IMG/VR virus record: IMGVR_UViG_3300027710_000024
Strand: one strand, 5' to 3'
Length of the DNA stretch: 20,000 nt
Source of the DNA: an uncultured virus (IMG/VR IMGVR_UViG_3300027710_000024)
Lineage: Duplodnaviria; Heunggongvirae; Uroviricota; Caudoviricetes
Shown here: piece by piece, positions 14,871 to 19,200 of the stretch
Layout of the letters: each line of letters begins with the position of its first letter
Numbering within the stretch: the stretch's first letter is position 1
The notes under the pieces: generated by a model
The model's input: only the letters and a program-made list of their open reading frames with translations
Database searches by the model: none
Told to the model about the DNA's origin: nothing
Translations under genes and position numbers: made by a program

Positions 14871-15290
14871 TTACTTAGATCGTTTTGATGTGCGCCACAT
14901 GTGGGCATTTTCTGATTTAACACCTATTGCTGTAAGCCCCATTTCGACTAATACATCGTCAATATGAAACTTTAGTCTTTCTAGATCTTTAGCGTCAAGC
15001 CTGACTAGGCAAGAGGTGTCAAAGTCTTGAACAACAAGGAAGGCTGTGTTGTCTGTTTTGCACCCTAGTATGTATCCGGATTCTTTTCTTGTTAAATCGC
15101 TTGATATGGTGTATTGACCTTCTGCAAGCAACTTGTGTCTTTTAAAGGCATCCATTAATGGTGCATAACTGTCTTTAGTGCGGGATTTGTTTGTGTTGGA
15201 GTTGGCTAGTTCTATAGCTTCGTCCTCGTGTTTTTCTGTGTCAACAACTTTAGGCTTTGCTACACGTTTGGGGGTTGCTTTTTTAACCAC
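14871..15290 (-). CDS. Hypothetical protein with basic N-terminus
   Basis: 139 aa, GAGGAG SD, GTG start. Confidence 0.7.
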   Translation of the reverse strand: MVKKATPKRVAKPKVVDTEKHEDEAIELANSNTNKSRTKDSYAPLMDAFKRHKLLAEGQYTISSDLTRKESGYILGCKTDNTAFLVVQDFDTSCLVRLDAKDLERLKFHIDDVLVEMGLTAIGVKSENAHMWRTSKRSK

Positions 15291-15529: not shown

Positions 15530-15700
15530 CCAAGATAAGAATCAGAATAAGTCAGCACGTGTCAGATACAGCTCCTCTAGCTTTTATTGCACATTCCTTC
15601 GAGTTCTGTATCTCAAGCCTGTGTGGTCCGCATAGATTCCGCGGTACTAAGTATCTATACACCACTTGAGTCTTAGTTGATTCCTACCTTTACCTGTCGA

Positions 15701-15931
15701 GAGACAGATAGGGAGCGTACTTACGCTAAACGAATCAGTTATGTAATCGTGAAGACGCTTAAGGCTGCAGCATTGGGCATCATTCCAGAAGTCACACACA
15801 TACTAAGCACATACGCTCTCTTACTCAGTATGCTCACTCTTCTTTACTAATGACTACACAGGCGTCCCGACAAGGACTCTGTCAGTGCCGGGTGTCGATG
15901 TTTAGCCGTAAGTACGCTTCCTACCTGTCCC
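15701..15931 (-). ncRNA. ~230-nt structured RNA closed by a ~29-bp stem
   Basis: Arms 15703-15731 and 15900-15929; internal 12-bp hairpin at 15798-15833 with 3 G-U pairs on the minus strand. Confidence 0.6.
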
Positions 15932-15954
15932 TACTTATGTTCTTTCATATGATT

Positions 15955-16022
15955 TTGTAGGGTGAGATATGCAAAAGCAGAGCGAACTTCAATCTCTTTT
16001 TTGCATACCTCACACACTACAA
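15955..16022 (-). ncRNA. Long hairpin
   Basis: GTGAGGTATGCAAAAAAGAG ... CTCTGCTTTTGCATATCTCAC, plus an outer TTGTAG/CTACAA pair. Confidence 0.5.
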
Positions 16023-16037
16023 CGCGATTGCTTGGCA

Positions 16038-16507: not shown

Positions 16508-16547
16508 GGCATATCCCTTCTGGCTGGTTGTTTGTGTTGGGGAAGGA

Positions 16548-16728: not shown

Positions 16729-17010
16729 TTGAGATAAGTAGGAGACACACTGAATTACGTACGGAATTATCGGGAGGCTCACTCTCCAGTGATCTCTTGC
16801 ATCGTCAAGGTCTGCCTATAGTTGCGCATTCCATAGGCTCAACGAACAGCGTGAGAGGGCTAACATTTCCCACGGGGCGTCTCTTACCCCACGCTGGCCA
16901 TCCAGATTGTTTCTTCATACCCTTAATCATTCCGATATAGCCTCCAGAATGATTCGTGTATCCTCAGTGACAATCGTGCTTCTCTCCAGTGTATCTCCTG
17001 CCTATCTCAA
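16729..17010 (-). ncRNA. ~280-nt structured RNA closed by a 24-bp stem
   Basis: Arms 16729-16752 and 16987-17010 (2 G-U and 1 mismatch on the minus strand); internal stems CAGCGTG/CACGCTG, GCCTAT/ATAGGC and AATCATTC/GAATGATT. Confidence 0.6.
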
Positions 17011-17034
17011 ATCTTTTTCGGGGGAAATTTAGGG

Positions 17035-17064
17035 TGAGCAGTTTGTCTCCTCTTACTCAGGAGG
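17035..17064 (-). ncRNA. Compact H-type pseudoknot, copy 2
   Basis: CCTC-CTGAGTAA-GAGG-AGACAAAC-TGCTCA. Confidence 0.6.
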
Positions 17065-17094
17065 CGTATCCCCTCCTATAGGGGCACGATTGCT

Positions 17095-17346: not shown

Positions 17347-17364
17347 CGGGCGTGTTTGTGTTGG

Positions 17365-17560: not shown

Positions 17561-17713
17561 TTAAATCACCACTGCCATCTCTTCTTTGATGAAAGCATAG
17601 GCATTAGCACAGGTATAGCAATACCTTTCGGTGGGGATACCTCCTAGTATAAATGCTGCGGTTCCGCTATGAACTAGGTCGGTGTTGTTACAGCCTTTGA
17701 CCTGACACTTCAT
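17561..17713 (-). CDS. 50-aa Cys microprotein (MKCQVKGC...YCYTC...), not in the ORF track
   Basis: Cx4C and CxxC; TAATG coupling with the upstream ORF. Confidence 0.65.
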   Translation of the reverse strand: MKCQVKGCNNTDLVHSGTAAFILGGIPTERYCYTCANAYAFIKEEMAVVI

Positions 17714-17877
17714 TATGAGCCTGCTTTCAGGCGAGGATTGTCAATACGGACTAGCTTGTGCTTGTTGCGTCGTTCGTTATACACAAGAGTCCAGATTTTC
17801 TTTTTCCAAGCCTTGCCATTGGGACGATTGGCTCCTGTTTGAACTTTGACAGGAGTTGAACTACCTTTTTTAGCCAC
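17713..17877 (-). CDS. 54-aa highly basic microprotein (MAKKGSSTPVKVQTGANRPNGKAWKKK...), not in the ORF track
   Basis: TAAGGAGG SD before the GTG. Confidence 0.7.
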   Translation of the reverse strand: MAKKGSSTPVKVQTGANRPNGKAWKKKIWTLVYNERRNKHKLVRIDNPRLKAGS

Positions 17878-17956
17878 GAACCCTCCTTAGATTAGGTTGG
17901 GCACCAAAGACTATCTTTACGCAAGAACTTTGCAACTTTGATGCCCGTTACTCCGC

Positions 17957-18042
17957 CGAGATGGGGAGTGAGAGATACACAGGCCAGACATACTTTACCG
18001 TTTAAGTTATACACACCTGTGTATCTTCCGCCACCCATATCG
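17957..18042 (-). ncRNA. Paralogous stem-loop element B
   Basis: 27-nt arms at 17957-17983 and 18016-18042. Confidence 0.65.
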
Positions 18043-18077
18043 AAGCCAGCCCACGATATTTAAATTAAAAAGGCAAT

Positions 18078-18114
18078 AAAAAAAGGGGAGACCGTAGTTA
18101 CACAGTCTCCCCTT
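18078..18114 (-). terminator. Intrinsic terminator
   Basis: AAGGGGAGACTG, loop, CGGTCTCCCCTTTTTTT on the minus strand after ORF 18124..18369. Confidence 0.85.
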
Positions 18115-18123
18115 GATCTATGA

Positions 18124-18369
18124 CTAAGAGATAACTAACTCCTCTTTGTCGAATACTTCTAGCAGGTCAGAGGCTAGTTCAATCTCCGCACCTATTGGAG
18201 ATGTAGCCTTGAGATGCCGTAGGTAGGTAATCATCGTGTCGAACTTGGTCATCTTACCCACAGCACTAGTGATGATTCCGGCCTTTTTTTCGGGGGAGCA
18301 TAAGCAATCCCCGTTATATATCTCTACCAGATGAATACTAGTAGGGATAGAGTCGTTTAGAGACGACAT
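18124..18369 (-). CDS. Hypothetical protein
   Basis: 81 aa, AAGGGAG SD. Confidence 0.7.
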   Translation of the reverse strand: MSSLNDSIPTSIHLVEIYNGDCLCSPEKKAGIITSAVGKMTKFDTMITYLRHLKATSPIGAEIELASDLLEVFDKEELVIS

Positions 18370-18392
18370 AATAACTCCCTTAGTTATTACCC

Positions 18393-18489
18393 TCAGATAG
18401 AGGGTGAGAGATACATAGGGAAGGTAAGACCTACACGCTACCGTGAGCCTCAGTCTGGTTGTCCTATGTATCCTTCACCAACTACCTGA
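18393..18489 (-). ncRNA. Paralogous stem-loop element A
   Basis: 27-nt arms at 18393-18419 and 18463-18489. Confidence 0.65.
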
Positions 18490-18633
18490 TAACAGGCAGC
18501 CGAACCCCTCCCAGACCTGGTGTTACAACTTGGGAGTGGTTTGCCTTCCCTGATAGTGGCTAAACAGCCATAACCAGACAGGGGTTTTATCCCCTGCCTG
18601 ATTAGAGTGGTTTAGACTCCTGCCGTGAAAGAA

Positions 18634-19200
18634 TTACTCAGAGAAAGAACCCTTGAGTAATAGATAGATAGGGAACAAGAGGTTCTTAGACTCTTGATCC
18701 ATATCCGCGCCTAGAGACTTCTCCAACGCCGACTTGAAAGCAGGAGTTGTTGAAGCGAGTGATGCCGCCGCTGCTTCTTTAGCAGCCTTGAGAGCAGCAG
18801 CCTTCTCAGCAGCAGCCGAAGCCTTGGCAGACAAGATGTCTACCGCGTCTGGGTTGCCTACGAGAGGCTTGATGTCTGTCCAGTCTACCTTTGTGAAGGC
18901 AGCAGCAATCTCAGCGTCTACGCCTGTGGCAATAAGAGCGCCGAGATAGATTGGCCGTTGGTAACCATTGGTGAGGAACTTCTTATCAACAGACTCTGAG
19001 TCTGTCTTATCCCCACGATTAGCCATAGCATTGACGACCAACTGACGGGTTGAGGTAAGGATTTCATCGACGCTACCGCCGTTGATAATGAAGTCCGCAA
19101 CATTGCGACGAACTTCTGGGGCAGCGAGGTTGGCATTACCAGCAACGAATACACCCTGCGACACTGTGTCGAGGGTCTGTGTCATTGTTTGTGTTGACAT
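18634..19200 (-). CDS. Hypothetical protein with an Ala/Lys-rich helix; first gene of the leftward block
   Basis: 188 aa, TAGGTAG upstream of the ATG. Confidence 0.75.
   Translation of the reverse strand: MSTQTMTQTLDTVSQGVFVAGNANLAAPEVRRNVADFIINGGSVDEILTSTRQLVVNAMANRGDKTDSESVDKKFLTNGYQRPIYLGALIATGVDAEIAAAFTKVDWTDIKPLVGNPDAVDILSAKASAAAEKAAALKAAKEAAAASLASTTPAFKSALEKSLGADMDQESKNLLFPIYLLLKGSFSE

What the first reader, a model, noticed from the sequence alone, without database searches (positions are those of the whole stretch)
17957..18489. Two paralogous hairpin elements with compensatory substitutions and a shared ACGGTA apex
Seen: the left arms tcagatagagggtgagagatacatagg and cgagatggggagtgagagatacacagg are 21/27 identical. 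Differences at arm positions 1, 2, 7 and 24 are matched by compensatory changes in the right arms. The otherwise different 32- and 43-nt inserts both carry ACGGTA (minus strand) at the apex. In both, the 3' arm can alternatively fold with downstream sequence (ACCCTC/GAGGGT; ACTCC/GGAGT) followed by AA. Inference: a repeated RNA device, where cleavage or ligand binding would free the 3' arm to form a protective 5' hairpin on the downstream mRNA.
Basis: partly seen in the sequence, partly recalled or inferred. Interest (0 to 1): 0.7.

Follow-up and report, generated by a model that had tools for sequence, protein, structure and literature searches.

The report
Swappable small-RNA cassettes in actinophages
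A group of lake viruses of actinobacteria mounts about thirty different small folded RNAs on one constant RNA stem and swaps them between sites and genomes; a few look like pieces of ribosomal RNA, which suggests a changeable kit of RNA decoys, though no function has been shown.

Summary
The two hairpins are real: arms 21/27 identical, compensatory at 1, 2, 7 and 24. The ACGGTA 'apex' is chance: 3 of 19 relatives of insert 1 have it, and two such loops share a 6-mer 15% of the time. The elements are minus-strand RNA cassettes in the early region of ~100-kb freshwater actinophages. A constant ~24-bp clamp covaries, and its 3' arm refolds into a 5' hairpin before a ribosome-binding site. It encloses a variable folded cargo: 93 distinct cassettes, 30 cargo classes of 26-164 nt, 3 empty clamps. 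Cargos are exchanged: a 96%-related phage carries this window's insert 1 in the arms of element 2. Best reading: host RNase III cuts the clamp, releasing the cargo and stabilising the next mRNA; cleavage is not shown. One cargo is a permuted piece of actinobacterial 16S rRNA (family-wise p 0.006), and this window's insert 1 matches a 23S internal loop (post hoc). Most cargos match nothing tested. The scan noted this family before on other DNA (e1-5921873, e1-6020917); the rRNA match was not in the lines shown.

The parts
18463..18489 (-). Cassette 1, 5' arm of the clamp; overlaps the recurrent module junction at 18482-18491
18420..18462 (-). Cassette 1 cargo, class A (43 nt): two short helices around a conserved UGAG/GUGUA internal loop; same core as a 23S rRNA internal loop (E. 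coli 1473/1511)
18389..18419 (-). Cassette 1, 3' arm; 18389-18405 refolds as a stand-alone hairpin
18124..18381 (-). Ribosome-binding site (18375-18381) and 81-aa orphan ORF (18124-18369) downstream of cassette 1; replaced by other modules in close relatives
18083..18114 (-). Intrinsic-terminator-like hairpin between the 81-aa ORF and cassette 2
18016..18042 (-). Cassette 2, 5' arm
17984..18015 (-). Cassette 2 cargo, class D (32 nt), small hairpin at 17997-18007; near-identical cargo sits in another clamp in L128
17950..17983 (-). Cassette 2, 3' arm; 17950-17969 refolds as a stand-alone hairpin
17899..17946 (-).
17713..17888 (-). Ribosome-binding site (17882-17888) and 54-aa basic ORF (17713-17877) downstream of elements 2 and 3
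18490..18633 (-). Structured leader between the 188-aa early gene and the first cassette; nearly identical in the two closest relatives
18634..19200 (-). 188-aa early gene heading the unit; no family assigned
15700..15932 (-). Further long clamp with the same outer-helix letters around a 181-nt insert (probable long cassette; judged by eye, not among the 93)
15954..16023 (-). Further clamp-like hairpin with a related 3' arm (judged by eye, not among the 93)

Best explanation
Each element is an RNA expression cassette in the phage's early transcript. A constant clamp (11 bp, one mismatch, 5 bp, a 2x2 loop, 8 bp) is cut by host RNase III near the mismatch (inferred). The cut releases the enclosed cargo as a small RNA closed by about one helical turn, and lets the 3' arm refold into a 5' hairpin that protects the next mRNA (inferred). 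The cargos are under their own selection for fold and loop sequence (shown) and probably act in trans by binding host proteins (inferred). Some copy rRNA protein-binding sites (sequence match shown for one class, suggestive for two). Cassettes are gained, lost and swapped between sites (shown), most likely by homologous recombination through the shared arms (inferred).
For: Clamp: 96.6% of cells paired, 13 of 24 pairs with double changes, 0 of 500 shuffles as high (22 of the 93 cassettes, picked by hand to span classes). Frequent G-U pairs fix the minus strand as the RNA. Three clamps have only a 5-nt loop, so the clamp works without cargo. The 11-bp upper stem fits the ~11-bp minimum for RNase III (PMC3867540). 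RNase III is in 99 of 101 genomes of the candidate host family. Cargo covariation: class A 5 of 13 pairs, B 3 of 6, C 8 of 9 and 100% paired. Exchange; cargo class is linked most strongly to the inner stem. A complete relative encodes RecA. rRNA likeness.
Against: No processed ends or cargo transcripts were seen: no RNA contig covers the cassettes. The clamp resembles host RNase III substrates only weakly. Most cargo classes show no rRNA match: 2 of 30 at p<=0.05 in the sense direction against 1 antisense. Models of classes A, B and C found nothing significant in 27 small actinobacterial genomes or in two rRNA operons (best E 0.059). In L017 and L018 the first slot holds a parS-like palindrome (label recalled), which points to a DNA-level role for at least that insert. 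A terminator-like hairpin lies just before cassette 2 with no sigma-70-like promoter found between them. The host is inferred, not identified.
Confidence: 0.6

Rival explanations
1. The cargos are cis-acting sensors: binding of a protein or ligand changes whether the clamp is cut and so tunes the downstream gene (riboswitch- or r-leader-like).
For: 78 of 93 cassettes have a ribosome-binding site and start codon within 60 nt (no null computed). r-leaders are cis elements that often mimic rRNA (PMC7247131).
Against: The same cargo precedes unrelated genes and the same site takes unrelated cargos. Tandem cassettes with no gene between them occur. The cargo sits a full helical turn from the likely cut, behind a perfect stem.
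Confidence: 0.15
2. Ordinary T7-type RNase III processing and stabilising sites; the loops are tolerated filler shuffled by recombination, with no function of their own.
For: Empty clamps exist. T7 early RNA has several such sites (PMC8708148). Most cargos match nothing known.
Against: Cargo helices covary while internal-loop bases stay fixed across many records. Class C recurs on unrelated stems. One cargo is built of permuted 16S pieces.
Confidence: 0.12
3. DNA-level elements: inverted repeats acting as recombination sites or cruciforms carrying protein-binding DNA decoys (integron attC- or PeSL-like).
For: Clean module indels at short direct repeats. parS-like palindromes in one slot.
Against: G-U pairs are kept on one strand only. 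No integrase, transposase or reverse transcriptase family among 97 ORFs of 100 aa or more of a complete relative. Cargo loops look like RNA modules.
Confidence: 0.08
4. The cargos are antisense or guide RNAs that pair with phage or host nucleic acid.
For: Constant scaffold plus variable insert is the layout of CRISPR and TIGR arrays.
Against: Inserts are structured and covary. Apart from hits to their own class, matches to three phage genomes and the window are short (12-20 letters) and at shuffle level. No cassette match in 301 host-family genomes. 1 of 90 at p<=0.05 in a host intergenic sample.
Confidence: 0.05

Closest known systems
RNase III processing sites of phage T7 early RNA (R1.1 and others)
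   Same: Repeated irregular hairpins between early genes; likely cleavage by the host enzyme and stabilisation of the products (PMC8708148 and PMC3867540, passages).
   Different: T7 sites end in short loops. Here the loop is an exchangeable, independently conserved RNA of 26-164 nt, and the predicted protective hairpin is at the new 5' end.
Actino-pnp motif (RF01688) and the Streptomyces rpsO-pnp hairpin
   Same: Actinobacterial hairpin; the S. coelicolor rpsO-pnp hairpin is cut by RNase III on both sides of an internal loop (PMC10126417, passages). Shares a GGUAG..AUC helix with the clamp. Weak hit to a phage leader hairpin, E 0.059.
   Different: The clamp does not reach the family threshold. 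The host motif is single-copy, has no cargo, and its cleavage destabilises the mRNA.
PeSL regulatory cassettes of T4-type phages (PMC2839356, abstract)
   Same: Repeated non-coding units in hyperplastic early regions that mediate modular shuffling by recombination.
   Different: PeSLs are promoter-terminator units bounding protein genes; here the shuffled cargo is a folded RNA inside a paired clamp.
Ribosomal leaders that mimic rRNA (PMC7247131, PMC3616713, passages)
   Same: Small RNAs that copy an rRNA protein-binding site, including a GUAA motif for S4.
   Different: They are host cis elements upstream of r-protein genes; no Rfam leader matched, and these sit in a phage before unrelated small genes.
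Phage RNA decoys: viral sgRNAs (10.64898/2026.06.01.729453, passages); RNA anti-CRISPRs and pseudo-ToxI repeats (recalled)
   Same: Phage small RNAs that imitate a host RNA to occupy a host protein.
   Different: Each imitates one defence RNA. Here about 30 unrelated folds share one carrier, and no likeness to CRISPR or antitoxin RNA was found in Rfam.

Membership tests
RNase III substrate hairpin | At least ~11 bp of double helix beside the cut site, on the transcribed strand | tested here: met
   11-bp upper stem and 13 bp below the mismatch, covarying, minus strand
RNase III substrate hairpin | Host encodes RNase III | tested here: inconclusive
   99 of 101 genomes of the candidate family; the true host is not identified
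RNase III substrate hairpin | Cleavage by the enzyme, mapped ends | not testable with these tools
   Only assembled contigs were available
Actino-pnp (RF01688) | Score above the gathering threshold, upstream of pnp | tested here: not met
   No hit on the clamps; 28.1 bits against 47.7 on a leader hairpin
Any Rfam 15 family | Score above gathering threshold | tested here: not met
   Only tRNAs pass in the window and 40 loci scans
PeSL cassettes | Early promoter plus terminator stem-loop in each unit | tested here: not met
   No sigma-70-like promoter or terminator inside either clamp; phage-specific promoters not covered
PeSL cassettes | Modular shuffling through the repeats | tested here: met
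Integron cassette array | Tyrosine integrase acting on attC sites | tested here: not met
   No integrase family among 97 ORFs of a complete relative; ORFs under 100 aa or cut at 20-kb borders could be missed
CRISPR/TIGR-type guide array | Unstructured inserts with matching targets and an associated effector | tested here: not met
   Structured covarying inserts; no targets; no Cas or Nop family
rRNA-mimic RNA (r-leader type) | Sequence and structure likeness to an rRNA site | tested here: inconclusive
   Met for class x10, suggestive for A and C, not met for most classes
rRNA-mimic RNA (r-leader type) | Binds the r-protein and regulates its operon in cis | not testable with these tools
   No r-protein gene was recognised next to the window's cassettes; binding needs experiment

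The most novel reading that the evidence does not exclude
The phages carry an exchangeable library of RNA decoys built like miniature pre-rRNAs: a processing stem around a minimal, often permuted copy of a ribosomal or other host RNA site. Released early in infection, they soak up ribosomal proteins, assembly factors or rRNA-cutting defence enzymes, and the library turns over like a gene-cassette array as hosts change.
Probability: 0.25. Interest if true: 0.92.

Novelty: categorically new. Interest (0 to 1): 0.74.

Why it matters
Phage counter-defence and host take-over are known almost only through proteins, with a few single RNA mimics. A constant carrier holding about 30 interchangeable folded RNAs in viruses whose likely hosts are freshwater actinobacteria would be an RNA counterpart of accessory-gene arrays. 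It hands over a ready list of natural aptamer candidates whose partners can be pulled down, and a natural small-RNA expression and mRNA-stabilising part for actinobacteria. The clamp alone is of a known kind (RNase III site); the carrier-plus-cargo system is what I could not place.

Tried and rejected
ACGGTA as a signal: rejected. Rfam: nothing but tRNA. Cultured phages: one chance hit, E 0.8. Species genomes: no exact cassette. Class C pattern: 0 of 301 actinobacterial genomes. Models R1-R3 on 27 small genomes: best E 0.24; only 150 candidates per genome were scored and no positive control was in those sets. Models on two rRNA operons: best E 0.059. Antisense targets in phages: shuffle level. 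RNase P, tmRNA and SRP likeness: none; Ms1 not found in 4 genomes. Host intergenic likeness: 1 of 90, on 27 kb from the first 400 kb of one genome only. General rRNA origin of cargos: rejected, no excess at k=7-9; excess only at k=10-11. Two-strand profile test: only class A (E. coli p 0.012; L284 p 0.029) and class G (E. coli p 0.006, judged chance because that segment lies inside the cargo's own stem) of 13 classes; class A also scored p 0.03 on the antisense strand of two host operons. A strict pairing descriptor for class A failed on the 23S loop because the helix register differs. More copies of x10 in viral contigs: none. RNA runs: no cover of the cassettes; absence in contigs shows nothing. 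First structure count on class B was misregistered and redone. Function of the 54-aa and 188-aa proteins: no usable lead. WhiB-based host search gave only 38-47% hits.

Full report
Setting. The window is part of a phage genome with a WhiB-like ORF, a tRNA, a ribonucleotide reductase and an AAA ATPase whose best cultured matches are Gordonia and Brevibacterium phages. Complete relatives are about 99-100 kb and encode tail sheath, three WhiB proteins and RecA. Runs holding the stretch are mostly lake, freshwater or subsurface metagenomes. An actinobacterial host is inferred. Which one is unknown; I used unnamed small-genome actinobacteria (G221 and its family) as stand-ins. The two elements lie on the minus strand, downstream of a 188-aa gene, among small orphan ORFs.

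Observation. The arms, their 21/27 identity and the compensatory changes at 1, 2, 7 and 24 are correct. The shared ACGGTA is not meaningful: 14.6% of shuffled loop pairs share a 6-mer, and only 3 of 19 relatives of insert 1 carry it.

The family. Pattern scans of viral and metagenome contigs and a profile-based finder gave 170 raw hits, with 0 in 276,854 shuffled bases. Keeping the better orientation left 99. I dropped 6 more (4 antisense or nested hits, 2 longer than 200 nt), leaving 93 distinct cassettes. Of 88 metagenome loci, 49 hold a cassette; the 39 without include the five records labelled human gut and are probably chance pattern hits. Many loci are the same contig found by several scans, so counts are of distinct sequences, not of independent lineages. 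The 93 fall into 30 cargo classes of 26-164 nt plus 3 clamps with a bare 5-nt loop.

The clamp. On 22 hand-picked cassettes spanning the classes, the 24-pair clamp is 96.6% paired, with double changes at 13 pairs; 0 of 500 shuffles reach this and slid registers fall to 34-60%. Several positions are mostly G-U on the minus strand, which would be A-C on the plus strand, so the structure is a minus-strand RNA. The layout is 11 bp, one mismatch, 5 bp, a 2x2 loop, 8 bp. The 3' arm with the next bases forms a second, mutually exclusive hairpin in 89 of 93 cassettes (27% in shuffles), and 78 of 93 have a ribosome-binding site and start codon within 60 nt (no null for the latter). RNase III needs about 11 bp beside its site, and mismatches or loops steer single or double cuts (PMC3867540, passages). 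It matures and protects T7 early RNA (PMC8708148, passages) and cuts the Streptomyces rpsO-pnp hairpin on both sides of an internal loop (PMC10126417, passages). The enzyme is in 99 of 101 genomes of the stand-in family. Likeness to host substrates is weak: the Actino-pnp hairpin, present in 24 of 27 small genomes, shares one 5-bp helix. The 3' strand of the 23S precursor stem ranks second of about 7,500 positions for the 3'-arm profile in both operons tested (tails 1.5e-3 and 3.2e-4), but its partner is not in the top four for the 5' arm. Cleavage is inferred, not shown. RNA-library contigs cover the 188-aa gene and, in one run, 18480-18591, then run on into different sequence; none covers the cassettes, and contigs cannot show ends.

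The cargos are selected. Class A (this window's insert 1; 19 members) keeps its two helices, with 5 of 13 pairs doubly changed, around a fixed UGAG/GUGUA loop, while the apical loop varies freely. Class B: 3 of 6 pairs. Class C: 100% paired, 8 of 9 pairs, with a fixed GUAAA tail, and it recurs on unrelated stems, including a third element of this window at 17899-17946. The shuffle control ignores relatedness, so these counts are not probabilities.

The cassettes move. In L015, whose 188-aa protein is 96% identical, the window's insert 1 sits letter for letter inside the arms of element 2; L016 has a third cargo there. Ten identical outer-arm pairs carry two or three different classes. L007 and L013, otherwise nearly identical, differ by one whole gene module and one whole RNA cassette, each bounded by a short direct repeat; L006 and L009 swap modules at the same junction. 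Cargo class is linked most strongly to the inner stem and less to outer positions. With RecA present and no integrase or reverse transcriptase family among 97 ORFs, homologous recombination through the arms is the simplest cause.

What the cargos might do. They match no Rfam family, have no antisense targets above chance in three phage genomes, and have no homologue in 301 genomes of the stand-in family. Against rRNA the picture is mixed. Class x10 (L137, L145) has 30 of its 80 bases in exact pieces from one 62-nt window of actinobacterial 16S rRNA (E. coli 1294-1355), in permuted order: 7 of 100,000 shuffles and 11 of 2,000 family-wise draws reach this; E. coli rRNA gives 8 bases and the antisense strand 17. 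[quoted passage not shown] Class A's two conserved strands occur as paired strands in 23S rRNA at E. coli 1473 and 1511 and at the same place in 8 of 121 family genomes. A relaxed pairing descriptor fits 14 of 19 class A members, hits E. coli 23S once, and hits 800 kb of background 0 times. Against this: the descriptor is post hoc, the six host loci it also hits were chosen by a similar pattern, G221 and G269 lack the match, the helix on one side is in another register, the profile test gives only p 0.012-0.24, and GUA/GAG is a recurrent RNA module (recalled). The helix name H58 is recalled; uL2 and YsxC contact H58 in B. subtilis (PMC12560758, passages). Class C's 'hairpin then GUAAA' hits one site, 16S 416-432, in all three rRNA sets and none antisense, and a GUAA motif imitates rRNA in S4 leaders (PMC7247131, passages); this too is post hoc and small. 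Overall, 8.1 of 30 classes share a 10-mer with host-like rRNA against 4.6 +/- 1.9 for shuffles (p about 0.03), 2.8 antisense and 6.1 for E. coli, with no excess at 7-9 letters. So a minority of cargos look rRNA-like; the window's insert 2 (class D) and most others are unexplained.

Literature. Searches for phage RNA arrays, freshwater actinophage structured RNA, phage RNA decoys, rRNA mimics and modular shuffling (listings and abstract starts only) showed no description of this system. The library lacks most subscription papers, and I read no supplements; large motif catalogues in supplements could hold these RNAs. Nearest are T7 RNase III sites, PeSLs (PMC2839356, abstract), r-leaders and viral sgRNAs (passages). 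PMC2864571 was seen as passages and PMC3616713 as passages. Two earlier notes of this scan describe the same clamp family on other genomes; I had reached that reading before opening them and tested it here.

Verdict. Real, wider than reported, and uncatalogued: a constant RNA clamp carrying interchangeable folded RNAs. RNase III release with trans-acting cargos 0.6; cis sensor 0.15; neutral filler 0.12; DNA-level 0.08; guides 0.05. Interest 0.74.

Noticed in passing
window, 8 copies on the minus strand (e.g. 17351-17362, 16527-16538, 15186-15197) and 1 on the plus strand: A 12-nt CA-rich motif recurs, often just upstream of minus-strand genes and of the tRNA; possibly a promoter or translation signal.
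   Followed up: no
L017:6650-6690 and L018:6640-6680: The first cassette slot holds a 14-16 nt palindrome resembling parS (label recalled) in a long hairpin.
   Followed up: partly
window:17713-17877 (-): 54-aa lysine/arginine-rich ORF right after elements 2 and 3, kept in the two closest relatives; a candidate RNA-binding peptide with no family hit.
   Followed up: partly
leaders of L003, L006, L010, L024, L027 and others, 300-600 nt upstream of the first cassette: A conserved pair of strong hairpins follows the first early gene, then further conserved motifs; this window has a different, shorter leader.
   Followed up: no
window:15400-16035 and 16750-17080 (-): Long non-coding stretches with more long stems; 16800-16986 is covered by RNA-library contigs of two studies at 85-90% identity.
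   Followed up: no
L010:2154-2500, L006:3250-3650, L012:3450-3650: A conserved non-coding element of about 300 nt, clamped by its own stem, lies downstream of the arrays in many relatives; no Rfam hit.
   Followed up: no
window:95-2957 (+): Nucleotidyltransferase-like ORF (motif judged by eye), HAD-like ORF and a queuine tRNA-ribosyltransferase-like gene (phrog_887) in a row.
   Followed up: no
L205:11650-12294 (+): A relative encodes a proteasome-subunit-like protein next to the early region (PF00227, E 9e-8).
   Followed up: no
L004, L009, L013, just after the junction motif: The same ~120-bp module with a small cysteine-rich ORF is present in three different phages between direct repeats.
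   Followed up: partly
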